The notes beneath the pieces were generated by a model. That model was not told where the DNA came from, made no database searches, and was given only the letters and a program-made list of their open reading frames with translations. 45,900 nucleotides of DNA from a virus. A program made the position numbers and the translations under genes. The stretch's first letter is position 1; each line of letters opens with the position of its first letter. Positions 14,948 to 43,649 of the stretch are shown piece after piece. The stretch is from the UHGV virus genome UHGV-1347344; one strand, 5' to 3'.

Positions 14948-14982
14948 TATATTAACTTGAATCCGAACAGGGAGAGAGGACC

Positions 14983-15363
14983 ATGGATTTTTCGGAAAGA
15001 ATTGCTGAATTGTCGAAAGTAGAGATAGAGTCCGAAGATACCCCACAAGGAAAAGAGCTGGATTCGCGTATAGTCACCACCGAGGAAGAAAAAGAGGCGT
15101 ATTACCTTGTCAAATCGCTTCTGGTGGGCACCGTTGATCCGGCCCGCGTAGCCATGCGGGACAGCATCAGCTACTGCTCCATCCTTCTTGACGACAACAG
15201 GCTCAAGCCTCTGTGCCGCCTGTATTTCAACGGAAAACAGTGGAGGGTCGGACTGTTTGATGGGGAGAATAAAGACGCAAAGGAAGACATCGAAAAACTG
15301 GAAGATATTATCCCCTTTGCGGATCGAATCCGGGCTACGGCCTTGAAATACGATAACAAGTAA
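14983..15363 (+). CDS. hypothetical acidic cytoplasmic protein
   Basis: 126 aa with RBS GGAGAGAGGA; part of the AT-rich cargo island. Confidence 0.5.
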   Translation: MDFSERIAELSKVEIESEDTPQGKELDSRIVTTEEEKEAYYLVKSLLVGTVDPARVAMRDSISYCSILLDDNRLKPLCRLYFNGKQWRVGLFDGENKDAKEDIEKLEDIIPFADRIRATALKYDNK

Positions 15364-15714
15364 AACTTTCCAACGTGGCGTTGCCCGCCAATGATGAAGA
15401 ACATCCAGATGCGGGCAATGCCACTGCTTTTCTCTTTACATTTTCCGAGTTTTGTGCTGTCTTTTGTGCACGGGCTTCAGAACCCCGTAGGCGGACAAAC
15501 GCCACCCGATAGCATGGCGCTTTTTTATGCCCTTTTTCCAAAGTCAAGAGTTTTTCTTGGCTGTCTTTTGGGCTATTATTGCATCCAATGTTTGCCGGGT
15601 GTGGCGGATATGTCCAAGCGAAAGCTAAAGGCCGCCAGCGGTTCCTACGCCGTTCTGAACACCCGGCGCTTTCTATTTCAGAGAGTGCAATTCAGACAAC
15701 GTAGGAGTTGCATT

Positions 15715-16386
15715 ATGGAAATGGCCCTAATCTTCAACGAATTTATCTTCACGCCTGTCACTCACCAAAACAGTCTCTGGATTCGTTCTTCTGAATTGGC
15801 TAAAGCACTTGGCTATTCCGACGACCGCAAGGTTGGTGTGCTCTATGCCCGACATAAGGATGAATTCTCCAATAATATGAGCGTGGTTCTCAATTTGAGT
15901 ACCACGGATGTACCCGCTATGAATCGCATCTTTTCCCTTCGGGGCTGCCATTTGGTTGCGATGCTAGCGCGTACTCCTATTGCCAAGGCGTTCCGCCGTT
16001 GGGTGCTGGATGTGATTGAACAGTACGGCGACAGGGTGCCCGTTGCCGAACCCGTGACGCTCAACGACGAGCTGATCAGTGCGGCGGAACGTGCCGAGCT
16101 CAAGCTCATCGTAGACGCCAAGCTCTCGACATACCCCGCAGCCGTGCAGGGCAAGGCCCGCGCCGAGATATGGGCGAAGCACAACCGCCACTTCCGCATC
16201 GCGGAATACAGTCAGCTCCCGGCCAGGCTTATGCCCGAGGCCCGCGAGTTCCTGCTTTCCGTCCGCGTCCGCGCCATCAATGCCATACCCACGGCGGAAT
16301 CCGCGATTCCGTACCCTGCGCTTCCCGTCGCATCGTCACTATACCGCGACCGCGTGAGGGAGCTTGAACGGCTCGAACAGGATTAG
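15715..16386 (+). CDS. BRO-N domain protein (antirepressor-like), start refined
   Basis: ATG at 15715 follows AGGAG. Product MEMALIFNEFIFTPVTHQNSLWIRSSELAKALGYSDD... matches BRO-N. The upstream part of the 331-aa track ORF is non-coding-looking. Confidence 0.6.
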   Translation: MEMALIFNEFIFTPVTHQNSLWIRSSELAKALGYSDDRKVGVLYARHKDEFSNNMSVVLNLSTTDVPAMNRIFSLRGCHLVAMLARTPIAKAFRRWVLDVIEQYGDRVPVAEPVTLNDELISAAERAELKLIVDAKLSTYPAAVQGKARAEIWAKHNRHFRIAEYSQLPARLMPEAREFLLSVRVRAINAIPTAESAIPYPALPVASSLYRDRVRELERLEQD

Positions 16387-16635
16387 ATGGAACTTGCAGT
16401 CCTGATCCGCGACCGCGCTTATGGACTGGAACGAGACTTCCGCCGAGTGACGCAAGGAACGTATCCCGAACTGCTCCGGCATGTATCGCCATCCGGGAAG
16501 ACGCCCGTTGACGCGCTTATCCAGCTCATGACAGCCCCAACCTACACCGCCCGGCAAAACCTCGAATCCGCGCTTGATGATATACGTCTTGCCATCCGTG
16601 CCGCGAAGACGGCAAACAGGTTGATGCTAGGGTAA
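16387..16635 (+). CDS. hypothetical protein
   Basis: 82 aa, abutting the stop of the BRO-N gene. Confidence 0.4.
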   Translation: MELAVLIRDRAYGLERDFRRVTQGTYPELLRHVSPSGKTPVDALIQLMTAPTYTARQNLESALDDIRLAIRAAKTANRLMLG

Positions 16636-16651
16636 TCCTTGGCAAGCCTAC

Positions 16652-17002
16652 ATGAATCATATAAGACTTTACCAACGGAGGGATTCCCCCATGCTGCTGT
16701 TCGATGATGGGAAAAAGCTTGAAAAGGCCGTCGGCGAGGAAGCCGCAAAAGCCATCGTGGAAGTACTGGAACGCTTTGACGAGAGTCAAAGGAACGCCAG
16801 TGCCACCAAGGGAGATCTGCGCGAAACGGAACTGCGGTTGCAAAAAGAAATTCGGGAATTGGACCTGAAAGTGCAAGCGGAGATCGAAAAAATTCGTGCT
16901 GAAGTGTTGAAGGTCAAGTATGATCTTTTGAAATGGCAAATCGCCATAGGGTTTGCCCTTGTCGCAGTTATGGCCAAGGGCTTCGGCTGGCTCGGATTCT
17001 AA
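16652..17002 (+). CDS. coiled-coil protein with C-terminal TM helix (XhlA / DUF1640-like)
   Basis: 116 aa; heptad-rich LRETELRLQKEIRELDLKVQAEIEKIRAEVL followed by WQIAIGFALVAVMAKGFGWLGF. Followed by a terminator. Confidence 0.45.
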   Translation: MNHIRLYQRRDSPMLLFDDGKKLEKAVGEEAAKAIVEVLERFDESQRNASATKGDLRETELRLQKEIRELDLKVQAEIEKIRAEVLKVKYDLLKWQIAIGFALVAVMAKGFGWLGF

Positions 17003-17022
17003 TAAAGAAAGAATATCGTAGA

Positions 17023-17060
17023 AAAGGGGTGGCTTTAAGAGCCGCCCCTTTTTGTTTTTC
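17023..17060 (+). terminator. rho-independent terminator
   Basis: aaggggtggct-ttaa-gagccgcccctt stem followed by tttttgttttt. Confidence 0.7.
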
Positions 17061-17102
17061 TGCCTCTCCCTTCTGTTACTGACGAGTTAAAAAAGATAAA
17101 AC

Positions 17103-17147
17103 TTTTTTGAAAAAATTGTTTATTTTTTCAAAAAATGGTGCTATTGT
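17103..17147 (+). promoter_or_regulatory. cassette promoter: 33-bp palindrome (TTTTTTGAAAAAAT-tgttt-ATTTTTTCAAAAAA) plus extended -10 TGcTATTGT
   Basis: Perfect 14-bp inverted arms at 17103..17116 and 17122..17135. TGCTATTGT at 17139..17147. RBS AAAGGAGAG precedes the ATG at 17181. Confidence 0.55.
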
Positions 17148-17180
17148 ATTTTCAACGAAAGGGACAAAAGGAGAGTTCTC

Positions 17181-17537
17181 ATGATAACCATCACCACAGC
17201 CAACAACGAAACAACTCTTGAAAACGACAAGGCTTTCTGTGCATATCGTATCGAAACAGAAATCGATTTTGATGAAGATGGTTATGAAGTGGACGGAGAG
17301 CAATATGTGCTCATCGAAAAGCTTTTTGTTCCCTCAGAAAATCGCGGAAACGGCATTGCCCGCCGCCTTCTTCGTGAAGCCGTCTCTCACGCTCGCGCTA
17401 CTTACCCCAGAATGGCGATTAGGTTGGTAGCTGAACCTCTGGATGCCGATACAGATATGGATCGGCTGGTGGCCTTTTATGAAAGCGAAGGTTTTGATGT
17501 GATCGAAGCTGGCGAAATCGTAGTCATGGAACACTAA
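17181..17537 (+). CDS. small GNAT-family N-acetyltransferase
   Basis: 118 aa with acetyl-CoA binding motif A (LFVPSENRGNGIARRLL). Confidence 0.6.
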   Translation: MITITTANNETTLENDKAFCAYRIETEIDFDEDGYEVDGEQYVLIEKLFVPSENRGNGIARRLLREAVSHARATYPRMAIRLVAEPLDADTDMDRLVAFYESEGFDVIEAGEIVVMEH

Positions 17538-17557
17538 ACAGAACAAAGGAGTAAGAC

Positions 17558-17728
17558 ATGACCCGCTATTCTATCCTGCTCACGACTGGCACAACGGGAA
17601 CCATCGATACCGAACAGCATCTTGAAGAGGGCATGGAAGTAGTCATTACCTTGCACGATGAAAACGGAAACAGAACGCAGGAAACCGGACTCATCGCTGA
17701 AATTCTTGACGAAGAATTTTTAGGGTAA
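17558..17728 (+). CDS. small hypothetical protein (56 aa)
   Basis: Strong RBS AAGGAGTAAGAC before ATG. Product MTRYSILLTTGTTGTIDTEQHLEEGMEVVITLHDENGNRTQETGLIAEILDEEFLG. Below the ORF-track size cutoff. Confidence 0.5.
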   Translation: MTRYSILLTTGTTGTIDTEQHLEEGMEVVITLHDENGNRTQETGLIAEILDEEFLG

Positions 17729-17750
17729 TCGAATTAAAAGGAAAAACACC

Positions 17751-18251
17751 ATGAAGCTATACCACGGAAGCATGATTGAACATCTGGCTATCTCTAACTC
17801 AGGAACAGGGTTAGGGTATAACTTCGGAGCGATGTTCTTTGCCCGTACTTACGGACATGCAAAGGAATACGGAAATTACGTCTACCAGTGCGAAATAGAC
17901 ATCAAGGACATCTTCTTGAACGAGGATCTCCCGTATCTTGAAGATGGCGCTGCTGGAACGGCTCTACGTGAAGTTATGGCAGAGCGCGGTATAGACGAAA
18001 AGTATTTTGATCTCTGCTGGTATGCCGTGGTTGAAGAGAAAATTGGTTATCAAGATGAAGACTGGGTAAACCTCCTCAACATGGACGACGATGACGCAAG
18101 TTGGGAGGCTCAGGCCATGCGGATCGCCTTTGCCCGTAAGCTTGGATTTAAAGCTGTGGAGATGGATGACGAATGCGGCAGCATTGCGGTTCTTCCCGAG
18201 TTCATAAAGCTGGAAGCGTCAACGGAGGAGGACGATGAAGAGGAAGACTAA
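17751..18251 (+). CDS. minimal PARP-like (H-Y-E class) ADP-ribosyltransferase domain protein with polyacidic C-terminus (putative)
   Basis: N-terminus KLYHGSMIEHLAISNSGTGLGYNFGAMFFARTYGHAKEYGNY parallels PARP catalytic LWHGSRTTNFAGILSQGL...[20 protein letters not shown] (H-G-S, then GYxFG..YFA, then Y). Candidate catalytic Glu in CWYAVVEEK. C-terminus STEEDDEEED. Confidence 0.45.
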   Translation: MKLYHGSMIEHLAISNSGTGLGYNFGAMFFARTYGHAKEYGNYVYQCEIDIKDIFLNEDLPYLEDGAAGTALREVMAERGIDEKYFDLCWYAVVEEKIGYQDEDWVNLLNMDDDDASWEAQAMRIAFARKLGFKAVEMDDECGSIAVLPEFIKLEASTEEDDEEED

Positions 18252-19626
18252 GATAGACATCGACGATCTTATCGATTTCAGTTCAAAGCTGGTGAACTCG
18301 AATTCCAGCATCGGTATTCGCTTGTCGTCGGGTGCCGCGCTCTCCCTTCCGTACCTGTCCACGAGGACATGTCTTGCGGCAGGGATTTCTATGCCGCTGG
18401 ATACGGCAAACGGGGCCAAGGATGTGGGAAAAGTAAGTGCTCTATACAAAACACTCGAAGAGGGGGAGGAAGGAGAGAAAGCAGATACAGAGGCGGCATT
18501 GAAGAAAATCCGTAAAACAGGATTTGCTAGAAAAACAGAGTCTGTCGACAGACGGATTCGTCAACTGCTCATTCCTAAAGACGTACCCTCTGGGTATGTC
18601 TCTTTGTCTCCCCTCCCCTCCATTGGACTTTCCGTTTTGCTGTTAGGAGCCGTTACAAGGCATAATCAAGATGTCTTTTCAAAAAAGAAGGAAGGTATCA
18701 AAATTCGACGGGCACATCTCGCTTTGGGCGGGGCAAACCCTCAGAATCTAGGATACGCTGCGTCCAAAAAGGCGATACAATATCCTATTTTTCTTTCTAC
18801 ACCCAAATCCGTGCGCGGAAATGCCAGCCGTCAGGCGTCAGGAAAGGGAACTTACCTGATCCTTTCCAATCTCTTTGTGCAAACGGCAAACATCTTGACG
18901 AATTATACTATGCTCAACGGCGCGCCCCTCTTTGCAGCATGGGGGATGGGACATGCACTGGAGCGCGAGATGCATGGTCCCAAGGTTACCGGAGTATGCC
19001 TTGTTGTGCATAGCATCGAACCCCTTGGGGAGCATGAAACCGCTATTTTCGAGCCTAGCCAAAGATTAGGAGCGGCTTTTACTTTTGAAAAATCCCGTAA
19101 CGGGAGCGACTACGCAAAAGGCTCCACACATCTCTCTTTGCAGCCCGGTGCAACGGGGCATATACGGGTAAGCCTTATCTTTGAACTGTCGGAAGCCCTG
19201 CATTCCGTACCGAACGCCGTGGATCTTTTCTTGAACTTCGGAAAGTTCTCCGGTGGGCTGATCACTTCATACGACGCCCCGGCTTTGCATGATGACCGCT
19301 CTACGCTTCTAGAGTGCATTCCCGCCGGGAAAGTTGTTTTGGATCGGCGCGACGTTATGAGTCCTGGAAACCCCATTGAACAGCTTGTAACCGCGATAGG
19401 AACGTACAGCGGAAAATGGCTGTCCGCAACGAATATCGGTTTTTCAGCAATCACAGACTTTCAAGTTCGCGGAGGGGCACGGAACGGACATCTTCATGCC
19501 TTTGCCGAGCCGCTGATCGGCATTACAGAATACGTCTCTACTGAAAAGAGGATACACGGGTATTTCTGGCGCAGCCAGTGGGAAGAAGATAGCTTTTTGA
19601 TGAGGGGAGATTCAACAAATGAATGA
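18235..19626 (+). CDS. 463-aa protein of unknown function (partner of the ART-like gene)
   Basis: Overlaps the upstream gene by 17 nt and the downstream gene by 8 nt (operonic). No P-loop, HEPN, nuclease or macro motif recognised by eye. Confidence 0.65.
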   Translation: MKRKTKIDIDDLIDFSSKLVNSNSSIGIRLSSGAALSLPYLSTRTCLAAGISMPLDTANGAKDVGKVSALYKTLEEGEEGEKADTEAALKKIRKTGFARKTESVDRRIRQLLIPKDVPSGYVSLSPLPSIGLSVLLLGAVTRHNQDVFSKKKEGIKIRRAHLALGGANPQNLGYAASKKAIQYPIFLSTPKSVRGNASRQASGKGTYLILSNLFVQTANILTNYTMLNGAPLFAAWGMGHALEREMHGPKVTGVCLVVHSIEPLGEHETAIFEPSQRLGAAFTFEKSRNGSDYAKGSTHLSLQPGATGHIRVSLIFELSEALHSVPNAVDLFLNFGKFSGGLITSYDAPALHDDRSTLLECIPAGKVVLDRRDVMSPGNPIEQLVTAIGTYSGKWLSATNIGFSAITDFQVRGGARNGHLHAFAEPLIGITEYVSTEKRIHGYFWRSQWEEDSFLMRGDSTNE

Positions 19627-21585: not shown

Positions 21586-23513
<1,928 letters not shown>

Positions 23514-23521
23514 TGTTTCTC

Positions 23522-24307
23522 CTAGTCCCCGAACTCGGGGATTACCGCTCTGTACGTGCATTGGCACCCCGGAAGCTCACCGCAAAGCACTTTGCGCTTC
23601 ACGTCAGAGTCGTAAAGACCTTCCGTGATGACGAACTTTTTCCCATTCATGAGCTGGTGGGTATGGCGGCTCGTTTTCTTCCCCGGCACATGTACCCAGA
23701 TGCCTTCGGTGATGCCGAGTTCCTTATCCTGCACCCGCTTAAGGGCCTCGGTCACCTTGTTGGACTGGTCGCGGGCAATGAATTCTGCCCGGCGCCGGGT
23801 GATCTCGTACCGCTTGTGCAGTTCGTCGGCGAGGAACTCCACGTCCCGGCCCGTGCTGGCGGAACGCATTACAAGCCCGGTAACTTCGGTAATGTACTGC
23901 TGCGGAATGGACTTGATGATACTGTAATTTTCCAGTAGCAACGCCCGTTCCACATCATTCATGGCCCGGGTGCTGGCCTTCATCTTTACCGTGAAGCCCG
24001 CATCCTTGAGGGCCTGCCGCATCCCGGCTTCCGTGCGCCGCCTCGTACTGCCCACGAACTCCCGTGCAAAACTCTCCGCGCTTTCCCTCCACCGCTTCGT
24101 CCAGTACCGGAACAGGCTCTTGAGGCGGTCTTGCAGGTCACTCGCCGGGGACGCATCCTGTGCTATGCGGGTTTCCTGCTTCCTGTACTCGGCGCGCAGC
24201 CACCACACGACGGAACGCTGCATCTCGTCGAGAAGCGACACCAGCCGCTTCCGGTATTTCGCCCGGATGCCCGCGTTGGGCTTGATGGCGCGGATGACCT
24301 TAGCCAT
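23522..24307 (-). CDS. head morphogenesis protein (Mu F / SPP1 gp7 family)
   Basis: Downstream of portal. Contains the Mu-F pattern WWLRAEYRKQ...; start ambiguous between 24307 and 24331. Confidence 0.7.
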   Translation of the reverse strand: MAKVIRAIKPNAGIRAKYRKRLVSLLDEMQRSVVWWLRAEYRKQETRIAQDASPASDLQDRLKSLFRYWTKRWRESAESFAREFVGSTRRRTEAGMRQALKDAGFTVKMKASTRAMNDVERALLLENYSIIKSIPQQYITEVTGLVMRSASTGRDVEFLADELHKRYEITRRRAEFIARDQSNKVTEALKRVQDKELGITEGIWVHVPGKKTSRHTHQLMNGKKFVITEGLYDSDVKRKVLCGELPGCQCTYRAVIPEFGD

Positions 24308-25847
24308 AGACGGCCCCGGCCTTGTCCACATCGTCGATGTCGGGCATCAAGCCCTCTTCCCCGGCTTCCGGCAGGGCATCAGGCATTCCATTGCCCTGCG
24401 GCACTTCCGCCGGGTCGATGTCGGAGAAGCCGCTGTCCGGGTCACTGGCAAGGGATTGCCGGGCTTCTTCCTGAGAGATGATGTCCCGATCCATGTAGAC
24501 GGCGATGGTGTCGGCCTTGGTCTTCTGGAGCGTCGCAAGGGCTGCCCTGTCCTCTTCGCCGAGGGGCGCGAAGTCGAAAGTCACGGAAGGGTCGATGGTT
24601 CCGCGCAGGTAGAGCTGGATACAGTCGAGCGCCTTCTTGATGCCGTCGCGCAGGACTTTCTCCTGCTGGCTCCTGACATGGTCGTAATAGTTGCGGATGT
24701 CCGATTCGCCCGTGGCATTGAACCCTGACGGGCTGATGCCGAGCAGCTTGACCGCCGGGGTTCGGTTCAGGGCGGCGAGGATTTCAAGGGACTGGCGCAC
24801 GATGTCGGTCACGCCTGAAAGCGGGGTTTCCAGCTTGACCACGTCTTCCGATTCTTTGTCGACGGCAAGCACGCCGTCATTGGTCATGGTCTGAATCATG
24901 TACCGGATGCGGGTATCGATCTGAGCGGTGCCCCCGGCTGAGTACAGGATGTCTTCCATCTTCGTCTTGAAGACGGTCAGCGAAAACTTGGTCAGTAGCC
25001 GGGCTTCGGCGGCGCGGCATTCCTGAAAATGCAGGACGTAATCCCAGAGGATCTGCGCCTGCGGGATGCCCAAAAAATTGTAGGCGGGCCGCAGCAGCAC
25101 CGGGCATTCGTTCGCAACCAATCGGATGAGGCGCGAGGCGTGTACCCGCTGTCCGAGCACCCACCACCAGCGCGGGCGGAAGTAGTCCGGCTCAAGCGGC
25201 GAAAGGCTGTTGTAGTCTCCGGGGAAGACGTTCACGGGGTCGATGACGACGAAGCGCAGCACGCCGCCGGGCCTGAGTTCGGCGGAATACGGGCTGACGT
25301 TCAGCGGGCGTTCCAGCTCTTCCCCGACTGCTCCGGTGTCGATGAAAAGGAAGGCCCCGCCCTCGTACCCCACAAGCTCGGTCGCCTCATGGAAAAGGCG
25401 TTGCAGTGCGAACCTCTTACACGCCTGCGCAAGGTCGGTGAGCAATGACTCGTCGCCGCCCTCCCCTTCGCGCTTGAACTCAATCCATGCTCGGGTCATG
25501 TCGTCGGATACCGTCTCGACGCAGGCACGAATCAATCCGTTCTGGGCAAGATTCTGGAGGACGCCGTAGCCCATGAATTGCGGCGCAATCCCGACCCCAA
25601 GCTCAAGCGAGTGCTGGAGCAGGGAATAGACGCCGGAATCCGCAAGCCGCGTATCCATCGCAAGCTGCACCTCTTTGGGCGCGCCGAGCGTCTTCGCAGG
25701 ACCGTACAGCCGACTGATGTCGTCGGGCGTAGGCGGCAAAGACTGAGCAAGGCCGCCGCGCACGTCCGGGGAGAGATTCAGACGGCGCGACGGTTGCACT
25801 TGCGGAGGTATGGAGGTGGCGTGTCGAAAAGTGCGCTTCTTGCTCAT
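24300..25847 (-). CDS. portal protein (DUF935 / Mu gp29-like)
   Basis: 515 aa upstream of the Mu-F gene. Late-promoter element and -10-like hexamer immediately upstream, possibly giving a leaderless start. Confidence 0.8.
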   Translation of the reverse strand: MSKKRTFRHATSIPPQVQPSRRLNLSPDVRGGLAQSLPPTPDDISRLYGPAKTLGAPKEVQLAMDTRLADSGVYSLLQHSLELGVGIAPQFMGYGVLQNLAQNGLIRACVETVSDDMTRAWIEFKREGEGGDESLLTDLAQACKRFALQRLFHEATELVGYEGGAFLFIDTGAVGEELERPLNVSPYSAELRPGGVLRFVVIDPVNVFPGDYNSLSPLEPDYFRPRWWWVLGQRVHASRLIRLVANECPVLLRPAYNFLGIPQAQILWDYVLHFQECRAAEARLLTKFSLTVFKTKMEDILYSAGGTAQIDTRIRYMIQTMTNDGVLAVDKESEDVVKLETPLSGVTDIVRQSLEILAALNRTPAVKLLGISPSGFNATGESDIRNYYDHVRSQQEKVLRDGIKKALDCIQLYLRGTIDPSVTFDFAPLGEEDRAALATLQKTKADTIAVYMDRDIISQEEARQSLASDPDSGFSDIDPAEVPQGNGMPDALPEAGEEGLMPDIDDVDKAGAVYG

Positions 25848-25880
25848 GGGGGCATCATGTTATGAGCGAAGAAGAAAACA

Positions 25881-25898
25881 CACCGTGAACAAGGTTCG
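25881..25898 (-). promoter_or_regulatory. late-promoter element copy 3, upstream of portal/head operon
   Basis: CGAACCTTGTTCACGGTG; CATGAT 21 nt downstream, ending 7 nt before the portal ATG. Confidence 0.55.
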
Positions 25899-25934
25899 GG
25901 TGCATGGATGTCGGACACCTTTCATATTGTATCA

Positions 25935-25980
25935 ATATAGATTAATCTATATATACATGGATACCTTTAGGGAGGTATCC
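25935..25980 (+). promoter_or_regulatory. 18-bp perfect palindrome ATATAGATTAATCTATAT plus RBS-sequestering hairpin upstream of endonuclease I gene
   Basis: Palindrome at 25935..25952. 8-bp stem ggatacct/aggtatcc (25959..25980) encloses the GGAGG RBS; ATG at 25983. Confidence 0.5.
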
Positions 25981-25982
25981 GC

Positions 25983-26729
25983 ATGTACAAAAGCATCATG
26001 GTGTTTTTGCTGGCCGCGCTAGTTATGACGTCCGAGGCGCAGGCCGCGGGCAACGAATGGAACGATTCGTTCAGCAAGGCCAAAAAAACGTTGGAGCGAC
26101 AAATCTATCATGACCACCGGATCACGCTCTACTGCGGGGCGGCGTTCGACGAGAAGAAGAACGTCACCCTCCCGGAGGGTTTTACTGCCGCGAAGCACGA
26201 GAAGCGGGCCGGGAAGGTGGAATGGGAACACGTGGTCCCCGCCGAGAACTTCGGGCAGGCGTTCGCGGAGTGGCGCGAGGGCGACGCGCAGTGCGTGGAC
26301 AACAGGGGAAAGGCGTTCAAAGGCCGCAAGTGTGCCGAGAAGGTCAATAAAGACTATCGGTACATGCAGGCGGACATGTACAACCTGTATCCGGCCATCG
26401 GCGCGGTGAATGCCCTACGCCAGAACTACAACTTTCAGATGTTGCCGGGCGAGGAGCCGGACTTCGGAAGCTGCGGGATGAAGATCGCCGACCGCAGGGC
26501 CGAGCCGCCTATCAGAGCGAGGGGACAGATTGCCCGGACCTACAAGTATATGGCCGACGCCTATGCCCCGCGCTACCGCATGAGCCGCCAGCAGACGCAG
26601 CTCATGGACGCATGGGACAAGATGTATCCGGTTGATGCGTGGGAATGCACGCGGGCCAGACGTATTGAAAGACTACAAGGTAACGAGAACCCTTTTGTGA
26701 AGGAAAGATGTCAAGAAGCAGGACTCTAA
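25983..26729 (+). CDS. endA: secreted endonuclease I (EndA/Dns/Vvn family periplasmic-extracellular DNase)
   Basis: Signal peptide MYKSIMVFLLAALVMTSEAQA followed by the Endonuclease_1 pattern (…YHDHRITLYCGAAF…WEHVVPAENFG…DMYNLYPAIGAVNALR…). Opposite strand to the flanking packaging genes. Confidence 0.75.
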   Translation: MYKSIMVFLLAALVMTSEAQAAGNEWNDSFSKAKKTLERQIYHDHRITLYCGAAFDEKKNVTLPEGFTAAKHEKRAGKVEWEHVVPAENFGQAFAEWREGDAQCVDNRGKAFKGRKCAEKVNKDYRYMQADMYNLYPAIGAVNALRQNYNFQMLPGEEPDFGSCGMKIADRRAEPPIRARGQIARTYKYMADAYAPRYRMSRQQTQLMDAWDKMYPVDAWECTRARRIERLQGNENPFVKERCQEAGL

Positions 26730-26743
26730 CTATTTACATTCAT

Positions 26744-28213
26744 TTATATTCTCCTTCCCATACGTGGATGATTGAGGATGGCGGGGTTGATGCACATAGG
26801 CCGCTTGGTATCGAAATCACGCAGCGCCTGTGTTGTGGCGTCCACTTGGTCGTCGTGGGGCGCACCGGGGAACTGTGTCAGTTCCGCGACGTACTCCCGC
26901 GCCCACGGGCAATGCTCAGGGTGCGGGAGCAGGACGTTCCCGGCCTCGAAGAACGTGGTCACGGCATGGGCCCGGGCCGTCTTGCTGCCGTCCGGCTCCA
27001 CGGGGATGATACCAGGCACAGCATGTTTCAGCGCGTCGATAACCGCCGGGCCGTTGGCCTTATCCTCCACCAGCTTACGGGCTGCGCCGGGCCATTTAGC
27101 GGCGAGCGCCCGGAACGCGGCGACCGTATCCGTAAATCCCATGCGCCGCCGGACCTGATCGAGGAGGTAGCGGTCGGCCCCCTTGCGGCCCCACACCTGC
27201 CCCACAACAAAGTCGGTATCGTCGCCGTCCTTGAACGTCATATCCCACGAGATAAGGAGCTGGTCGAACTGCTCTGGCAGATCTTTGGGGAGCCAGAAGC
27301 GCAACCACTCGGATTTGAAAATGGCGCCGCCGTCTGGCGTAGGCCGCTGCTGGTACAGGGCCTCCCAGTCGCGTGTGCCGAGGGCTTTCTTAATGGCAAG
27401 GAGCTGGCTCAGCGGGTAACGTTCCGGGTGCAGGGCTTCCCCGGCCTTACGATGTGGCTCGTCCGCCGTGGCGATGGCAGGGAAGTCCACCACACGCCAG
27501 TGGTCGCCCTCCCCCCGTGCGGCGGCCTCAAGCAGCCGCCCGGAAAGGTCGGCCATGTGCCAGCGCGTATTGATAATGAGAACCCCCCCGCCGGGCGCGA
27601 GGCGCGTGTACAGCGTGGACGTGTACCAGTCCCAGACGTTCTGGCGGATGGTCGGGGAATCGGCGGATGCCCGGTCTTTGAATGGGTCATCGACGATGAC
27701 GATATGCCCGCCCATGCCCGTGATGCCGCCGCCCACGCCAGCGGAACGGTAGCATCCAGCGTGCCCCACTACCTCGAATATATCTGAGTTGCGGAGGTAG
27801 GAACCGTTCCCCACGGTGCGGATGTTCTTGCCGTACAGCGCCGTGCCGGGAAAGAGTTCCCGGTATTCCGGACTGTCGATGACGCGCTGAACGTCGCGGT
27901 TCATGCGCGAGGACAGGTCGGCGGTGTAGCTCGTGGAAATGACGGATAGATCGGGATAGCGGCCCAAGGCGTAAGCCGGGAAGCGGCGCGAGGCGAGCTC
28001 GCTTTTCCCGTGGCGCGGGGGCATGGTCAGCATGAGGCGCGGGGAACGCCCGGCTACGACATCTGCAAGGAAAGCGTCAAGCTCGGAACAGATTTCCTCA
28101 TGCACCCATCCCATGCAGTAGCCGGGCATGGTGTAGCGCACGAAGGCCGCGAGACAGCTCCGGGCCAGCGCACAACGAATTTCAGCAAGCACCTCACCCG
28201 TCATTCCTCTCAT
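26744..28213 (-). CDS. terminase large subunit
   Basis: 489 aa. ATPase region TMPPRHGKSELASRRFPAYAL (Walker A-like) then a nuclease domain. Preceded by terS. Confidence 0.85.
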   Translation of the reverse strand: MRGMTGEVLAEIRCALARSCLAAFVRYTMPGYCMGWVHEEICSELDAFLADVVAGRSPRLMLTMPPRHGKSELASRRFPAYALGRYPDLSVISTSYTADLSSRMNRDVQRVIDSPEYRELFPGTALYGKNIRTVGNGSYLRNSDIFEVVGHAGCYRSAGVGGGITGMGGHIVIVDDPFKDRASADSPTIRQNVWDWYTSTLYTRLAPGGGVLIINTRWHMADLSGRLLEAAARGEGDHWRVVDFPAIATADEPHRKAGEALHPERYPLSQLLAIKKALGTRDWEALYQQRPTPDGGAIFKSEWLRFWLPKDLPEQFDQLLISWDMTFKDGDDTDFVVGQVWGRKGADRYLLDQVRRRMGFTDTVAAFRALAAKWPGAARKLVEDKANGPAVIDALKHAVPGIIPVEPDGSKTARAHAVTTFFEAGNVLLPHPEHCPWAREYVAELTQFPGAPHDDQVDATTQALRDFDTKRPMCINPAILNHPRMGRRI

Positions 28214-28598
28214 TCTCTTTAAAAGCCTCCCGCGTCAGCTTAAGCAATTCATCGGAGGAAAGATGGGAAAGATCAAGTGCTGGTGCAGGCGACATCGTTC
28301 TATCAGAACTGGAAAGATCAATTTTTTGAATCTCTCGCCATCCCATACGAGTCTTTGCCCAGAAAATAAGAGCGGTTGTGTCACCCGACATAGCTTTGTC
28401 GAAGAGCCGCTTTCCAACTTTCACATTAGCGTTGGTTCTTCCTGTGATAAGCTCCTGCTTATAGAGCTTCACCATCGTATCAACAGACATACCAATCTTT
28501 GCTGCGATTTCATCTTGCGGTACTCCGTATTGAGCCATTGCCTCAACAAGCGCCGCCTTTGTTCCAGATCTTTTTATCGCAGGTCTACCACCGCTCAT
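28194..28598 (-). CDS. terminase small subunit (HTH)
   Basis: 134 aa overlapping terL by 20 nt. HTH-like AAKIGMSVDTMVKLYKQ. Confidence 0.6.
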   Translation of the reverse strand: MSGGRPAIKRSGTKAALVEAMAQYGVPQDEIAAKIGMSVDTMVKLYKQELITGRTNANVKVGKRLFDKAMSGDTTALIFWAKTRMGWREIQKIDLSSSDRTMSPAPALDLSHLSSDELLKLTREAFKENERNDG

Positions 28599-29542
28599 AG
28601 AACGCCTCCGAGCAGGTTGATGTAGTACGGAATCGTTAGTTCAAGCCCCTCATCCAAGCTCGTTGTCGGCTTGAATCCCAAAAGAGCGGACGCTTTTCCA
28701 ATATCAGGAACGCGCCGCGTGGGGTCGTCGTCAGGAATGGGCCGGAATACGATTTTTGATGACGACCTGACTTTTTCGATTATAGTCTTGGCAAGCTCCA
28801 AGATCGTGATTTCTTCGGGGTTTCCAATATTTACCGGACCCGTGATATGACTATCCGACTCCATCAGCCGGACAATCCCTGATATCGTATCGCGCACAAA
28901 ACAAAACGAGCGTGTCTGAGAACCATCCCCGTATACGGTTATATCCTCACCCCGCAAGGCTTGGCAGATGAAGTTAGGAATAACCCGACCATCGTTTATC
29001 GACATCATGGGGCCGTAGGTGTTGAACAGACGCACAACCTTAACCTTGATCCCCTCTTCCCGGTAAAAGTCGAAGAAGAGACTTTCTGCGCAGCGTTTCC
29101 CCTCATCGTAGCAGGCTCGGATGCCGATGGGGTTGACGTTGCCTCTATCAGTCTCTCGCTGAGGCGAAACTAGTGGCTCGCCATATACTTCTGATGTGGA
29201 TGCCTGCAAAACCGTCGCACCATGTACCTTGGCAAGCTCCAGTATATTCAATGCCCCAAGTACGCAGGTCTTTGTAGTCTGAATTGCATTTTTGCCCTGA
29301 TAGTTTAAAGGGCTTGCTGGACATGCGAGATTGTAAATTTCGTCTATATGCTCAGAAGCCTCAAAAGGAGAACAAATATCATGAAGAAAGAACTGAAAGT
29401 TTTTGAGCCGATTGGGGATATTATTAATATTTCCGGTTGAAAGATCGTCTATGCAGATAACCTTGTGTCCTTTTTTAAGCAATTCCCTGCAAAGATGTGC
29501 TCCTAAAAATCCGGCACCACCTGTTACGAGACTTGTTTTCAT
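28595..29542 (-). CDS. uxs: UDP-glucuronate decarboxylase (UDP-xylose synthase family SDR)
   Basis: MKTSLVTGGAGFLGAHLC…NYQGKNAIQTTKTCVLGALNILELAKVHGATVLQASTSEVYG…NPIGIRACYDEGKRCAESLFFDF…VRLFNTYGP closely parallels UXS/ArnA-C (GxxGxxG, YxxxK). Low GC. Confidence 0.85.
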   Translation of the reverse strand: MKTSLVTGGAGFLGAHLCRELLKKGHKVICIDDLSTGNINNIPNRLKNFQFFLHDICSPFEASEHIDEIYNLACPASPLNYQGKNAIQTTKTCVLGALNILELAKVHGATVLQASTSEVYGEPLVSPQRETDRGNVNPIGIRACYDEGKRCAESLFFDFYREEGIKVKVVRLFNTYGPMMSINDGRVIPNFICQALRGEDITVYGDGSQTRSFCFVRDTISGIVRLMESDSHITGPVNIGNPEEITILELAKTIIEKVRSSSKIVFRPIPDDDPTRRVPDIGKASALLGFKPTTSLDEGLELTIPYYINLLGGVL

Positions 29543-30408
29543 GAATCCGCCTTTTGGTATCGAGGGGAAAGGATTTTGGGCGTGCAGTGATTCCAAGAGA
29601 TTTTATGGTGGTATCGCATATACGTATCTTTGAGCGTCGATATTTTCACAGCAGATGGGCACATCATGACAGTATAAAAACTTTTCATATATGTACCATT
29701 TTCAAGATACATATCGGTCAGCCCACCAGCTTGAGATTGTGTCTCAGCTTGATTGATGCACGTATTCCCGAACGAGAAAAACAGCTTGCCCCGATGCCCC
29801 AGAGTGACATACGTGTTAACGTCATCATTCATACGTCCAACGAACTTGAAAGGGCGTAATGTCTTGCAAAAAAACGCGTTCATGGCTTTTCGTTTCACAG
29901 CCAATTTGGGGGAATCAATAGCCCCACCAATGAAATCGCCATTCTGCATAAAGCAGACGCTTAAAGATGGAGTTCTTTCTAAAAAATCTAGATAGGCATC
30001 GAAGACATCATCGAGGCATTGTGGGTATACATATTTCAAGACGCCATCTTTTGCATATCTGTGCTGGAACGAGTCATAATCATCGTCAAGTTCTAAGAAA
30101 AAATCGAGTCCCAAGCCCTCGGCTATTTTGTGACACATATTTCTAGCAAAAAGGACCGTATTTTTCTTCTGGATATTATCACCACGATCAGTAAATCGTG
30201 CTGCATCTTCCTTACAAAAGCGGATCACTTCTTTACCATACCGACGAATATATTCATCACCTGTCGTATCTTCATCATCAATAATGAGGTAAATGGGGCC
30301 TGTATATCCATGCTTTCGGAGTGAACGATATGTTTGCTGATTCTGAGGGCGTCCATACGTAAGTATAAAGCAAGCAAATTTTTCATGCCTCATCGTTCTT
30401 ATCCTCAC
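29539..30408 (-). CDS. putative glycosyltransferase (DxD-type)
   Basis: 289 aa with FILTYGRP and LELDDDYD motifs. 4-bp overlap with the uxs-like gene; AT-rich. Confidence 0.45.
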   Translation of the reverse strand: MRIRTMRHEKFACFILTYGRPQNQQTYRSLRKHGYTGPIYLIIDDEDTTGDEYIRRYGKEVIRFCKEDAARFTDRGDNIQKKNTVLFARNMCHKIAEGLGLDFFLELDDDYDSFQHRYAKDGVLKYVYPQCLDDVFDAYLDFLERTPSLSVCFMQNGDFIGGAIDSPKLAVKRKAMNAFFCKTLRPFKFVGRMNDDVNTYVTLGHRGKLFFSFGNTCINQAETQSQAGGLTDMYLENGTYMKSFYTVMMCPSAVKISTLKDTYMRYHHKISWNHCTPKILSPRYQKADS

Positions 30409-30685
30409 GGATTAAGGCATCTCGAAGTTCATCTATCTGGGAAGAGAGCTCAACAAACCCGTTTTCAATCGCATTATCAATGTCGATGATAACAAGGGCT
30501 GACTGCTCCATAAGTCGCTGCATTTCAGGGGATGCGTTTGCGTAGTACTCTGCGATGTTCTCGTAGTTGAAAACCGTATGCCGATGAGCAGCCGCGAGAA
30601 GAAAGGCTTTTTCTTTCGGAGAAACGGTTGAGTCATGAATGGCCTTTGGCGAGTTCATTATCCTTTGTCTGGTCGTACAGTTCAT
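30383..30685 (-). CDS. hypothetical protein
   Basis: 100 aa, first gene of the low-GC sugar moron; start uncertain. Confidence 0.35.
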   Translation of the reverse strand: MNCTTRQRIMNSPKAIHDSTVSPKEKAFLLAAAHRHTVFNYENIAEYYANASPEMQRLMEQSALVIIDIDNAIENGFVELSSQIDELRDALIREDKNDEA

Positions 30686-31154
30686 CTACGCAAACAGATC
30701 TACCCGTAGGCTCATATATGGGGGTTGTGGCTTTCGCTGTGTACTTATCTTCTACGGGAACATCTTCTTGGGGCTCGAAAAGCTCAGCCTCAAAACCGAT
30801 AAGATCAGTATCAAAATCGGCTAGTTTGAGCTCTTCAAGCTCAAGGGCCAAAAGTTCGTTGTCCCATTCAGCCCAGTTTGCGGACTGATTGGCAAGCAGT
30901 CGAAAAGCCTTGACTTGAACATCACTCAACTCGTCGGCAAGAGCCACAGGGACATCTTTCAAGCCGAGTTTCTGAGCTGCTTTCAGGCGCAGATGTCCAT
31001 CAACGACGGTGCCATCGGACTTAGCGACAATGGGGATACGGAATCCGAACTCCCGGATGGCCGCACACATACGATCAACCTGCGCATCATTTTTGCGCGG
31101 GTTCCTTGCGTAAGGTATCAATCGCTCAATAGGCCATTGCTCGACATTCAGCAT
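30633..31154 (-). CDS. ParB-like nuclease domain protein
   Basis: 173 aa, IERLIPYARNPRKND…VVDGHLRLKAAQKLG (ParB N-terminal / sulfiredoxin-like fold). Confidence 0.65.
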   Translation of the reverse strand: MLNVEQWPIERLIPYARNPRKNDAQVDRMCAAIREFGFRIPIVAKSDGTVVDGHLRLKAAQKLGLKDVPVALADELSDVQVKAFRLLANQSANWAEWDNELLALELEELKLADFDTDLIGFEAELFEPQEDVPVEDKYTAKATTPIYEPTGRSVCVDELYDQTKDNELAKGHS

Positions 31155-37157: not shown

Positions 37158-37312
37158 TTTCCAACGTCTACATGAAGCACGCCAAGGTATCTTTGGAACG
37201 GCCTAAAAAGGTTGACCGGGCTAGAGTTGCTGCGGTCATCATCTTTATGGCTGTCATGCTCGGTATCTGCATTCTTCCACAGATCTTGTACGGGATGGAG
37301 GCCATGCGATGA
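37154..37312 (+). CDS. small membrane protein (52 aa)
   Basis: ATGA overlaps on both sides; TM segment AAVIIFMAVMLGICILPQIL. Below the track cutoff. Confidence 0.35.
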   Translation: MISNVYMKHAKVSLERPKKVDRARVAAVIIFMAVMLGICILPQILYGMEAMR

Positions 37313-43436: not shown

Positions 43437-43649
43437 ATGGAAACGACAATCTCGGAAATCCGCTCAATCGTACAGCGGCGTCGGGAGTTGGAGATTGAAG
43501 ACCAACGTCTCTACCAACGGTTTCTCGAACTGCTCGAACTCAACCAAGGGACTAGAAAATCTTCCCGCGATAGGCTATCCCCAGAATCAGGGAAGGCGCT
43601 TTTTGCTGGCTTGAAGAGAGGTTCTCATGAGCGTAGCAAAGCGCGGTGA
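43437..43649 (+). CDS. hypothetical protein (possibly excisionase-position gene)
   Basis: 70 aa directly upstream of int, overlapping it. RBS GGGAGGATAAG. Confidence 0.4.
   Translation: METTISEIRSIVQRRRELEIEDQRLYQRFLELLELNQGTRKSSRDRLSPESGKALFAGLKRGSHERSKAR

What the first reader, a model, noticed from the sequence alone, without database searches (positions are those of the whole stretch)
25898..26743. Secreted endonuclease I moron between portal and terminase, with palindromic operator and RBS-occluding hairpin
An EndA/Dns/Vvn-type periplasmic DNase with a signal peptide is inserted on the opposite strand to the packaging genes. Its upstream region has a perfect 18-bp palindrome ATATAGATTAATCTATAT, which looks like a repressor site. 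It also has an 8-bp stem (ggatacct/aggtatcc) that sequesters the GGAGG Shine-Dalgarno. A phage-encoded extracellular DNase could restrict natural transformation or eDNA/biofilm, or help escape from DNA traps. The regulation looks deliberate.
Basis: partly seen in the sequence, partly recalled or inferred. Interest (0 to 1): 0.55.

Follow-up and report, generated by a model that had tools for sequence, protein, structure and literature searches.

The report
Host-derived secreted DNase carried by phage
A temperate phage of the gut bacterium Bilophila wadsworthia carries, between its DNA-packaging and portal genes, an intact secreted DNA-cutting enzyme that it copied from its host together with the host gene's own control region; phage-borne secreted DNases are already known, so this is a well-documented new example, not a new kind of system.

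Summary
ORF 25983-26729(+) is an intact Endonuclease I (Vvn/EndA/Dns family) with a Sec signal peptide. It lies antisense between portal (24300-25847, -) and large terminase (26744-28213, -). The 18-bp perfect palindrome (25935-25952) and a hairpin covering the Shine-Dalgarno and AUG (about 25955-25986) are real.

Comparison adds three points.
1. The roughly 860-bp cassette (25900-26759) sits in a cargo hot spot. Of 30 informative close relatives, 17 carry intact endA, one a decayed remnant, 7 have TerL abutting portal, and 4 carry other cargo.
2. The gene is under purifying selection (dN/dS about 0.1). It has been taken up by several unrelated Desulfovibrionaceae phage backbones, including Mu-like ones.
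3. The palindrome and hairpin were not invented by the phage. Chromosomal endA genes of Bilophila and relatives (78-88% identical) carry the same 20-bp dyad box at about -49 and the same hairpin. Five of 12 hairpin pairs show compensatory changes, and the box shows one symmetric double change.

Most likely this is a lysogenic-conversion gene that remains under host control. It resembles Campylobacter CJIE1 Dns and Vibrio ICE IdeA, which block DNA uptake. The protein that binds the box, the transcription start and the enzyme activity are untested. It is a new member of a known kind, of moderate interest.

The parts
25900..26759 (.). Cargo cassette inserted between the TerL 3' end and the portal 5' region.
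   Evidence: In cargo-free relatives (L018, L024, L034, L035, L038), 21 nt occupy this interval. Homology to them ends at GGTTCGG (25893-25899) and resumes at ATACGTGG (26760-26767). The insertion replaced the last four TerL codons.
25899..25924 (.). Left junction segment (GGTGCATGGATGTCGGACACCTTTCAT).
   Evidence: It is shared by endA-bearing relatives and by L039, which carries different cargo (IS200/IS605). It is absent from cargo-free relatives. Both the L016 deletion and the L039 cargo start right after ...TTTCAT.
25927..25932 (+). TTGTAT, a possible -35-like hexamer (weak inference).
   Evidence: A TTG(T/C)A(C/T) motif lies just upstream of the box in most variants. The consensus promoter scan found nothing at its threshold.
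25934..25953 (.). 20-bp dyad box AATATAGATTAATCTATATA (perfect 18-bp palindrome 25935-25952); candidate operator or promoter element.
   Evidence: It is conserved upstream of chromosomal and phage endA copies: L089, L090/L093, L092, L173, L181, L307, L310, L311, L037. In 6 of 10 variants, 9-10 of the 10 positions are symmetric. L307 carries a symmetric double change, GATTAATC to GACTAGTC.
25955..25986 (+). 5'-UTR hairpin that pairs the Shine-Dalgarno and the AUG. 5' arm ACATGGATACCU; 3' arm AGGUAUCC-(GC bulge)-AUGU.
   Evidence: -22.2 kcal/mol for 61 nt, z = -4.55; hairpin present in 9 of 10 box-bearing variants; 82 of 92 canonical cells, 5 of 12 pairs with compensatory changes, slide controls 16-47%.
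25970..25975 (+). Shine-Dalgarno GGGAGG, 7 nt before the ATG.
   Evidence: Sequence. Paired in the minimum-free-energy structure.
25983..26729 (+). endA-like gene: secreted Endonuclease I, 248 aa.
   Evidence: Pfam PF04231 E 3e-29; Vvn 1OUO E 9e-50; PHROG 6861 E 2e-63; dN/dS 0.09-0.13 among phage copies.
25983..26045 (+). Sec signal peptide (residues 1-21, cleavage predicted after AQA).
   Evidence: Inspection of the sequence. The alignment with mature Vvn starts at residue 29, matched to Vvn residue 5.
26730..26743 (.). 14-nt gap between the convergent stop codons of endA and TerL, with no terminator.
   Evidence: One search found no terminator-like site. Relatives L013, L307 and L181 have a GC-rich hairpin after endA that the window lacks.
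24300..25847 (-). Portal gene (context; backbone).
   Evidence: Phage_portal_3, E 8e-81.
26744..28213 (-). Large terminase gene (context; backbone). Its last codons were altered by the insertion.
   Evidence: Terminase_6N and 6C. C-terminus compared with L018.

Best explanation
The segment 25900-26759 is an accessory ('moron') cassette in a temperate Bilophila wadsworthia phage. It encodes an intact, Sec-exported, non-specific Mg2+-dependent DNase of the Endonuclease I family (Vvn/EndA/Dns). The phage took the gene from a Desulfovibrionaceae chromosome together with the gene's native 5' control region. The cassette landed in a recombination-prone cargo hot spot between the large terminase and portal genes, antisense to the late operon.

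The control region has two layers. The first is a 20-bp dyad-symmetric AT-rich box centred about 40 nt upstream of the ATG; it most likely binds a dimeric host transcription factor at or next to the promoter. The second is a short 5'-UTR hairpin that pairs the Shine-Dalgarno sequence and the start codon, so translation is held down unless the hairpin is opened.

These signals are host-type and the gene faces away from the late genes. It is therefore most likely expressed from the prophage under host control. The enzyme is then delivered to the periplasm or medium, where it degrades extracellular or incoming DNA. By analogy with CJIE1 Dns of Campylobacter and IdeA of Vibrio ICEs, this would block DNA uptake and/or allow eDNA to be scavenged.

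Shown: family, intactness, insertion polymorphism, purifying selection, host origin, and conservation with covariation of the box and hairpin. Inferred: enzyme activity, export, expression in the lysogen, identity of the box-binding factor, and the benefit to phage or host.
For: Family and catalytic site. PF04231 at E 3e-29. Vvn at E 9e-50, with the EWEH histidine aligned to the residue mutated in 1OUP, and with the Arg (GRK) and Asn (VN..R.N) motifs kept.

Host. The same prophage, with endA 97% identical, is in B. wadsworthia ATCC 49260 (L091). The window carries an integrase and RecT, so the phage is temperate.

Hot spot. Among 30 informative relatives with portal at least 91% identical, 17 have intact endA, 1 a remnant (L016), 7 have TerL abutting portal, and 4 carry other cargo: an antirepressor, IS200/IS605, or a SocA/Panacea toxin-antitoxin pair.

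Selection. dN/dS is 0.09-0.13 with dS up to 0.38 among phage copies. The 58-nt control region shows 0 of 58 differences, whereas the flanking CDS and left junction differ by 6-17%.

Host origin. Copies that are 88%, 84% and 78% identical sit among ordinary chromosomal genes (L089, L090, L310). They carry the same box and hairpin.

Hairpin. It folds in 9 of 10 variants (z from -1.8 to -4.9) and in none of 4 box-less copies. Five of 12 pairs show double-sided changes; 89% of cells are canonical against 16-47% in slide controls.

Box. There is a symmetric double change in L307 and constant spacing at -47 to -51.

Precedents. MGE-borne periplasmic or secreted DNases that inhibit transformation are reviewed in PMC12378983 and PMC4372405. 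A host regulator, Rgg, controls a prophage DNase in PMC3629212.
Against: No sigma-70-like promoter and no terminator were found at the scan thresholds, so the classical 'own promoter plus terminator' moron anatomy is incomplete. The window copy has lost the terminator hairpin seen after endA in relatives.

The protein that would bind the box is unknown. A search for other box-carrying genes was uninformative.

About a third of close relatives do without the gene and one carries a remnant, so any benefit is conditional.

Other phages place endA inside lytic operons without the box or hairpin. This suggests the enzyme can also serve the lytic cycle.

Vvn Glu113 is Gln in this clade. The change is conserved and its effect is unknown.

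It is not established that Bilophila is naturally transformable.
Confidence: 0.7

Rival explanations
1. The nuclease mainly serves the lytic cycle, not the lysogen. It would be released at lysis to digest the viscous host DNA so that virions disperse, or to recycle nucleotides.
For: Copies 77-87% identical sit inside lytic operons of Mu-like phages with no box or hairpin. They lie before Mor (L007-L010, L183) or between baseplate genes Gp45 and Gp46 (L308). None of them folds a hairpin.
Against: In the window the gene is antisense to the late operon and keeps the host-type control region unchanged (0 of 58 differences). Late transcription from TerL would produce antisense RNA across it.
Confidence: 0.2
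2. The palindrome is not a repressor operator. It would be the core promoter itself (an AT-rich -10 or UP-like element, possibly bidirectional and also restarting portal transcription). Alternatively its dyad symmetry is kept by a mutational mechanism such as hairpin-templated repair.
For: The box is the only strongly AT-rich stretch in a 60-65% GC region. Its right end (TATATA, or TAnnnT starting at box position 19) looks like a -10 element in most variants. No separate consensus promoter was found. An 18-bp palindrome somewhere in 45.9 kb is not rare by chance.
Against: Both half-sites are conserved over dS of about 1, and L307 changed both halves symmetrically. A one-sided -10 element does not need that. 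Chromosomal contexts show no consistent divergent gene that would require a bidirectional promoter.
Confidence: 0.25
3. The hairpin is not a simple translational brake. It could be a sensor (RNA thermometer, or a CsrA-type or sRNA target) or a 5'-terminal stabiliser of the mRNA.
For: SD/AUG-sequestering hairpins are the architecture of RNA thermometers (established knowledge). The loops of the variants expose GGA motifs. If transcription starts just after the box, the stem would be 5'-terminal.
Against: Stems of 10-14 pairs with -15 to -19 kcal/mol for 42 nt are more stable than typical thermometers. No Rfam family matches. No data bear on CsrA or sRNAs.
Confidence: 0.25
4. The gene is a neutral hitch-hiker in a recombination hot spot with no function for phage or lysogen.
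For: It is absent from 11 of 30 close relatives and decayed in L016. The hot spot also collects IS elements and toxin-antitoxin pairs.
Against: dN/dS is about 0.1 at dS up to 0.38 within the phage lineage. The control region is invariant. Several unrelated phage backbones acquired the gene independently.
Confidence: 0.05

Closest known systems
Dns (CJE0256) of the Mu-like prophage CJIE1 of Campylobacter jejuni (Gaasbeek et al. 2009, as summarised in PMC12378983 and PMC4372405)
   Same: A prophage-borne DNase with a signal peptide that acts in the periplasm or outside the cell. It is an accessory gene, present in only part of the strains. Endonuclease I genes are annotated in Campylobacter phage CAM-P21 and in Helicobacter prophages, and they are detectable by tblastn from this protein family. 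Desulfovibrionaceae Mu-like phages also carry endA.
   Different: The host phylum and phage backbone differ. Here the gene sits between TerL and portal, antisense. It is only about 30% identical to the Helicobacter prophage enzymes. Inhibition of transformation has been shown for CJIE1 Dns but was not tested here. That CJE0256 itself belongs to PF04231 is from memory and was not tested.
IdeA / SxnA of Vibrio cholerae ICEs (VchInd5, SXT) (PMC12378983)
   Same: A nuclease encoded by a mobile element, located in the periplasm, that degrades incoming DNA and so lowers transformation.
   Different: The carrier is an ICE, not a phage. Its family relationship to Endonuclease I was not tested here.
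Prophage-encoded extracellular DNases of Streptococcus pyogenes (Spd1, Spd-3, Sda1) (PMC3258162, PMC3629212)
   Same: Secreted DNases carried as lysogenic-conversion genes. Spd-3 is controlled by a host transcription factor (Rgg) that binds upstream of the phage gene. That is the same logic proposed here for the box.
   Different: The host is Gram-positive. These enzymes belong to a different branch of the beta-beta-alpha-metal nucleases, not PF04231. Their established role is escape from neutrophil DNA traps.
Chromosomal Endonuclease I: Vvn (V. vulnificus), EndA (E. coli), Dns (V. cholerae)
   Same: Same fold family. The match to the solved Vvn structure is E 9e-50 over the whole mature domain, with the catalytic EWEH histidine conserved. 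All have a Sec signal.
   Different: Identity to the Salmonella EndA-family gene is only about 45%. The score is below the NCBIfam equivalog cut-off (198 against 372 bits). Six of the eight Vvn cysteines are kept, there is a 13-residue insertion, and Vvn E113 is Q. This copy is phage-borne.
Phage morons and cargo hot spots (the concept from lambdoid phages and from P2/P4 defence hot spots; own knowledge)
   Same: A dispensable gene inserted between two conserved essential genes, on the opposite strand, with its own regulatory signals. The same site holds alternative cargo in relatives.
   Different: No terminator and no consensus promoter were found in the window copy. The regulatory signals are demonstrably those of the donor host gene.

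Membership tests
Endonuclease I (Pfam PF04231; Vvn/EndA/Dns) | Profile match above the curated threshold over the whole domain | tested here: met
   102.9 bits against a 25-bit cut-off, profile positions 67-233 of 235. phmmer to Vvn 1OUO at E 9e-50, residues 29-243.
Endonuclease I (Pfam PF04231; Vvn/EndA/Dns) | Beta-beta-alpha-metal active site: general-base His in the EWEH motif, metal-binding Asn, and Arg | tested here: met
   His83 aligns with the Vvn residue that differs between 1OUO (H) and 1OUP (A). The GRK Arg and the VN..R.N Asn are conserved. Vvn E113 is Q here.
Endonuclease I (Pfam PF04231; Vvn/EndA/Dns) | N-terminal Sec signal peptide (periplasmic or secreted) | tested here: met
   By inspection only: K3, a hydrophobic core IMVFLLAALVM, and AQA|A. 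Homology to mature Vvn begins right after it. No dedicated predictor was available.
Endonuclease I (Pfam PF04231; Vvn/EndA/Dns) | Orthology with E. coli EndA (NCBIfam equivalog PRK15137) | tested here: not met
   197.7 bits against a cut-off of 372. It is a family member but not an equivalog.
Endonuclease I (Pfam PF04231; Vvn/EndA/Dns) | Mg2+-dependent non-specific DNase activity | not testable with these tools
   Needs an enzyme assay.
Phage moron / accessory cargo gene | Dispensable: present or absent between otherwise near-identical phages at a fixed site | tested here: met
   17 intact, 1 remnant, 7 empty and 4 with other cargo among 30 relatives whose portal is at least 91% identical.
Phage moron / accessory cargo gene | Own promoter and terminator flanking the gene | tested here: inconclusive
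   The consensus scan found neither. A conserved AT-rich box with a TTG motif upstream suggests a promoter region. The terminator hairpin present in relatives is missing here.
Phage moron / accessory cargo gene | Expressed from the repressed prophage | not testable with these tools
   Needs a transcriptome of a lysogen.
MGE-encoded DNases that inhibit natural transformation (CJIE1 Dns, IdeA/SxnA) | Carried on a mobile element and exported to the periplasm or medium | tested here: met
   Temperate phage with an integrase, present as a prophage in B. wadsworthia ATCC 49260, with a signal peptide.
MGE-encoded DNases that inhibit natural transformation (CJIE1 Dns, IdeA/SxnA) | Lowers transformation, or uptake of foreign DNA, by the carrier cell | not testable with these tools
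   Needs a genetic assay. Natural competence of Bilophila is not established.
Translational control by an SD-sequestering 5'-UTR hairpin | SD and/or AUG base-paired in a stable local structure | tested here: met
   (z = -4.55). (9 of 10 variants).
Translational control by an SD-sequestering 5'-UTR hairpin | Structure conserved through compensatory substitutions | tested here: met
   Five of 12 pairs have double-sided changes (L173, L181, L307). A 2-nt indel converts the window's bulge into paired bases in L090 and L037. These counts rest on a manual, structure-aware alignment. The MAFFT alignment A2 places the arms in different registers.
Translational control by an SD-sequestering 5'-UTR hairpin | The hairpin lies within the transcript (transcription start upstream of it) | not testable with these tools
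   The transcription start is unknown.
Transcription-factor operator | Dyad symmetry conserved among orthologous promoters at fixed spacing | tested here: met
   Ten variants. In 6 of 10, 9-10 of the 10 positions are symmetric. Spacing is -47 to -51. L307 has a symmetric double change.
Transcription-factor operator | A cognate DNA-binding protein and a regulon | tested here: inconclusive
   There is no regulator gene in the cassette and none is conserved next to the chromosomal copies. In 1.5 Mb of fetched loci the box occurs only upstream of endA. The metagenome scan was dominated by AT-rich noise. The one attractive hit (L294, LysR/SDR) is not from Bilophila.
Rfam cis-regulatory RNA families | Match to a curated covariance model | tested here: not met
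   Only two chance-level hits, at E 3.4 and 9.7.

The most novel reading that the evidence does not exclude
Secreted Endonuclease I may be a recurrent phage-spread exclusion weapon in gut sulfidogens. Several unrelated Desulfovibrionaceae phage lineages would have acquired it to destroy incoming DNA in the periplasm, whether transforming DNA that could cure the prophage or DNA of competing elements. In this reading, the 20-bp dyad box plus SD/AUG hairpin is an undescribed two-layer host sensor module (transcriptional and translational) that the phage co-opted whole, so a host physiological signal decides when the phage-borne nuclease is made.
Probability: 0.2. Interest if true: 0.6.

Novelty: new member of a known kind. 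Interest (0 to 1): 0.4.

Why it matters
Bilophila wadsworthia is a bile-associated, H2S-producing gut pathobiont whose phages are almost unstudied. A prophage that supplies a regulated secreted DNase could change how this bacterium handles extracellular DNA. That includes uptake of foreign genes, biofilm matrix, nucleotide and phosphate scavenging, and possibly host DNA traps.

The comparative data also give three concrete resources:
- a mapped cargo hot spot between TerL and portal in a widespread gut phage family;
- a clear case of a phage capturing a host gene together with its control region;
- a small conserved control module (dyad box plus SD/AUG hairpin, supported by covariation) that is absent from Rfam and can be tested directly.

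Tried and rejected
1. Consensus promoter and terminator scan of 25700-26900: nothing found. My hand-picked -35/-10 candidates give inconsistent spacings between variants, so I do not claim a promoter.

2. The repeat finder did not report the 18-bp palindrome. I verified it by script.

3. Search for a box regulon. In 1.5 Mb of fetched loci the box occurs only upstream of endA. Two high-GC hits were followed up (L294 LysR/SDR and L287 Phd-type antitoxin). L294 shares an extra ATGGATAC after the box, but its LysR has no gut or Desulfovibrionaceae relatives. I rejected it as a chance or unrelated operator.

4. The idea that the palindrome is the end of an IS200/IS605-type or other mobile cassette. 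Downstream flanks of endA share nothing across contexts and there is no second hairpin. Rejected.

5. The RNA-hairpin reading of the box. The symmetric change in L307 falls where the loop would be, so it argues for DNA-level symmetry. This is weak evidence.

6. The MAFFT alignment of the UTRs (A2) puts the 5' arms in shifted registers, so I did not use the count of structure pairs on it. Pair counts come from a manual alignment and lean towards the structure. The independent per-sequence folds do not have this bias.

7. PADLOC: no defence-system model hits the nuclease.

8. Gaasbeek et al. 2009 (PMC2655492) is not held, so I could not check the family assignment of CJE0256 directly.
Full report
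**What is there.**
The window is a temperate phage or prophage. It has an integrase at 43627-44691, a RecT and PDDEXK exonuclease pair at 37309-39041, and RusA and Mor-like genes. The morphogenesis block lies on the minus strand: small terminase candidate 28194-28598, TerL 26744-28213, portal 24300-25847, Mu-F-like 23522-24331 and DUF2213 21586-23292.

Between TerL and portal, on the plus strand, lies ORF 25983-26729 (248 aa). It matches Pfam Endonuclease_1 (E 3e-29). It matches the solved Vibrio vulnificus nuclease Vvn over the whole mature domain (E 9e-50) and PHROG 6861, a family of unknown function (E 2e-63).

The catalytic histidine of the EWEH motif is present. It aligns with the position that differs between PDB 1OUO and the H-to-A mutant 1OUP. 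The GRK arginine and the VN..R.N asparagine are also present. Six of the eight Vvn cysteines are kept, and Vvn E113 is glutamine.

The N-terminus is MYKSIMVFLLAALVMTSEAQA|AG. By inspection it is a standard Sec signal, and homology to mature Vvn starts directly after it. The score is below the NCBIfam equivalog cut-off for E. coli EndA. The protein is therefore a family member but not an ortholog of EndA.

**The cis elements.**
The palindrome ATATAGATTAATCTATAT is at 25935-25952 and is perfect. It is the longest perfect palindrome in the window. An 18-bp palindrome somewhere in 45.9 kb is not rare by chance: 61 of 300 Markov simulations contain one. At this particular 83-nt spot it is rare: 66 of 200,000 shuffles reach 18 bp.

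This fold pairs both the GGAGG and the AUG. A 61-nt stretch folds at -22.2 kcal/mol with z = -4.55. No Rfam family matches. No consensus sigma-70 promoter or intrinsic terminator was found.

**Host and relatives.**
The same prophage, with endA 97% identical, lies on a scaffold of Bilophila wadsworthia ATCC 49260 (L091). A portal-based scan of IMG/VR returned 78 related loci. I classified the TerL-portal junction in the 32 whose portal is at least 91% identical:
- 17 have an intact endA with the palindrome. One more shows the palindrome at a contig end.
- L016 keeps only codons 15-105. It has lost the control region and the first 14 codons of the signal peptide.
- 7 have TerL abutting portal, with about 60 nt between them.
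- 4 carry other cargo: an antirepressor-like gene or an IS200/IS605 tnpA-tnpB pair.
- 2 are uninformative.

Some endA-bearing relatives carry additional genes between endA and TerL: an antirepressor (P22_AR_N) and a SocA/Panacea pair. More distant relatives, with portal 47-78% identical, never have endA.

Alignment with the empty-site phages puts the cassette at 25900-26759. It replaced 21 nt, including the last four TerL codons. The site is therefore a cargo hot spot, and endA is its most common occupant.

**Is the gene maintained?**
Among phage copies, dS reaches 0.38 with dN/dS of 0.09-0.13. Differences occur in blocks, which indicates recombination between alleles. The 58 nt from 25925 to the start codon show 0 of 58 differences in six of seven comparisons; the seventh has a 2-nt TA deletion. 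In the same comparisons the left junction differs by 15-17% and the coding sequence by 3-12%.

Seventeen relatives have intact copies.

**Where it came from.**
Copies that are 88% (L089), 84% (L090, and L093 from an uncultured Bilophila genome) and 78% (L310) identical sit among ordinary chromosomal genes: GGDEF, LysR, MFS transporters, a sulfate transporter and a racemase. These chromosomal genes carry the same upstream module.

I collected ten distinct variants: window, L089, L092, L090, L037, L173, L181, L307, L311 and L310. They share a 20-bp dyad box, consensus TATATAGAT-WW-ATCTATATA, starting 47-51 nt before the ATG. Six of the ten variants have 9-10 of 10 symmetric positions. In L307 both halves changed together, GATTAATC to GACTAGTC.

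Directly downstream, 9 of the 10 variants fold into a hairpin that pairs the SD and usually the AUG (z from -1.8 to -4.9). The arms differ in sequence but stay complementary:
- L173 changes G-C to A-U.
- L307 changes C-G to U-A.
- L181 changes four consecutive pairs.
- L090 and L037 have two extra bases on the 5' arm that pair with the two bases bulged in the window.

In a manual alignment, 82 of 92 cells are canonical and 5 of 12 pairs have double-sided changes. Sliding the partner strand by 1-3 positions gives 16-47% canonical cells. The manual alignment favours the structure. The per-sequence folds do not depend on it.

Homologs of 76% identity or less from other genera have neither element. 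The phage therefore captured the gene with its native control region, and that region has stayed intact in the phage.

**Recurrent capture by phages.**
Close homologs also occur in other phage backbones:
- Mu-like phages, 87% identical, just before pRha/Mor (L007-L010).
- A Mu-like phage, 78% identical, between a repressor-like HTH gene and Mor (L183).
- The baseplate operon of a Mu-like phage, 77% identical, between Gp45 and Gp46 (L308).
- A phage with lambda-type portal and GpA terminase, 79% identical, next to a restriction-modification module and HicAB (L181). This copy has the box and a hairpin with a different stem sequence.
- Another prophage region, 72% identical (L185).

The four operon-embedded copies lack both box and hairpin, and their leaders do not fold.

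In the isolate-phage collection, Endonuclease I is rare. It appears in four Helicobacter prophages, Campylobacter phage CAM-P21, and two Salmonella records: a 2.7-kb fragment and a chromosomal scaffold that is not a phage.

**How it most likely works.**
Shown: an intact, exported-type Endonuclease I gene, maintained by selection, sits in a dispensable hot spot of a temperate phage and carries a host-derived, conserved two-part control region.

Inferred:
- The box binds a dimeric host factor at or near the promoter. This rests on dyad symmetry, fixed spacing and the lack of any regulator gene travelling with it.
- The hairpin limits translation initiation.
- The gene is expressed from the prophage, because it faces away from the late operon and late transcription would be antisense to it.

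The endA and TerL stop codons are only 14 nt apart and no terminator lies between them. Relatives have a GC-rich hairpin after endA. Transcriptional interference between endA and late transcripts is therefore possible in this variant.

The biological role is inferred by analogy. CJIE1 Dns in Campylobacter, and IdeA and SxnA in Vibrio ICEs, degrade incoming DNA and block transformation (PMC12378983, PMC4372405). Streptococcus pyogenes prophage DNases are lysogenic-conversion factors, and Spd-3 is controlled by the host regulator Rgg (PMC3258162, PMC3629212).

The operon-embedded copies in Mu-like phages keep open a role in the lytic cycle, such as clearing DNA at lysis.

**Novelty and score.**
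Phage-borne secreted DNases, including Endonuclease I-type enzymes in Campylobacterota prophages, are already known. This is a new member of a known kind.

The new points are:
- the Bilophila/Desulfovibrionaceae setting;
- the mapped TerL-portal hot spot;
- the repeated capture by unrelated phages;
- the conserved box-plus-hairpin module inherited from the host gene.

I rate interest at 0.4. The case is solid and experimentally tractable, but it would not surprise a specialist.

Noticed in passing
window 18235-19626 (+): A 463-aa ORF looks like a Cas8f-Cas5f fusion. PADLOC gives Cas8f E 1e-20 for residues 10-193 and Cas5f E 2e-21 for residues 208-453; Pfam gives Cas_Csy2 E 1e-10. It sits alone in a plus-strand island (14348-19626) between tail and capsid genes. 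The island also holds a Bro-N protein (15391-16386) and a GNAT acetyltransferase (17181-17537). No Cas7, Cas6 or CRISPR array was looked for. It could be a remnant, a decoy, or part of a phage-borne type I-F-like system.
   Followed up: partly
window 28595-30408 (-): A low-GC island (0.40-0.52, against 0.60-0.65 for the phage) lies between the small-terminase candidate and a ParB_N gene (30633-31154). It encodes an NAD-dependent sugar epimerase/dehydratase (333 aa) and a TET-associated glycosyltransferase (PF20691, E 6e-36). This suggests a DNA base hypermodification (glycosylation) module. No TET/JBP or cytosine methylase was found among the neighbouring ORFs I scanned. Relatives such as L001 have different genes at this position, so it may be a second cargo hot spot.
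   Followed up: partly
L036 2911-3945, L039 787-1830, L044, L058 1992-3035: In several close relatives the TerL gene is interrupted by about 1 kb after residue 459. The in-frame insert starts ...GGIPIEKVKEGDFVV and ends ...VLVHN|C, then rejoins DATTQALRDF. This looks like an intein. A 213-aa ORF with HNH-like and zinc-ribbon features overlaps it in another frame. The window's TerL has no insert.
   Followed up: no
L039 1924-3563: An IS200/IS605-type pair occupies the same TerL-portal hot spot in place of endA: a Y1 transposase-like ORF of 138 aa and a TnpB-like ORF of 402 aa. It is inserted right after the same ...CACCTTTCAT junction that bounds the endA cassette and the L016 deletion.
   Followed up: no
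L014 818-1821; L307 4945-5538: A SocA/Panacea-type antitoxin-like gene (197 aa) with a downstream 137-aa partner, and a P22_AR_N/KilAC-like antirepressor (about 310 aa), lie between endA and TerL in some relatives. The hot spot can hold up to about 3.3 kb of stacked cargo.
   Followed up: partly
L181 1-2530: In the lambda-type-packaging phage that carries endA with the box and hairpin, the gene sits next to a Vsr / HinfI-like restriction enzyme / C5-methylase module and a HicAB pair near the portal. This looks like another packaging-module cargo cluster.
   Followed up: no
window 25988-26009 (+): A second predicted hairpin lies in codons 2-9 of endA (CAAAAGCAUCAUGGUGUUUUUG). It encloses the second in-frame AUG (Met6) and lies directly after the SD/AUG hairpin. 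Its conservation was not examined.
   Followed up: no
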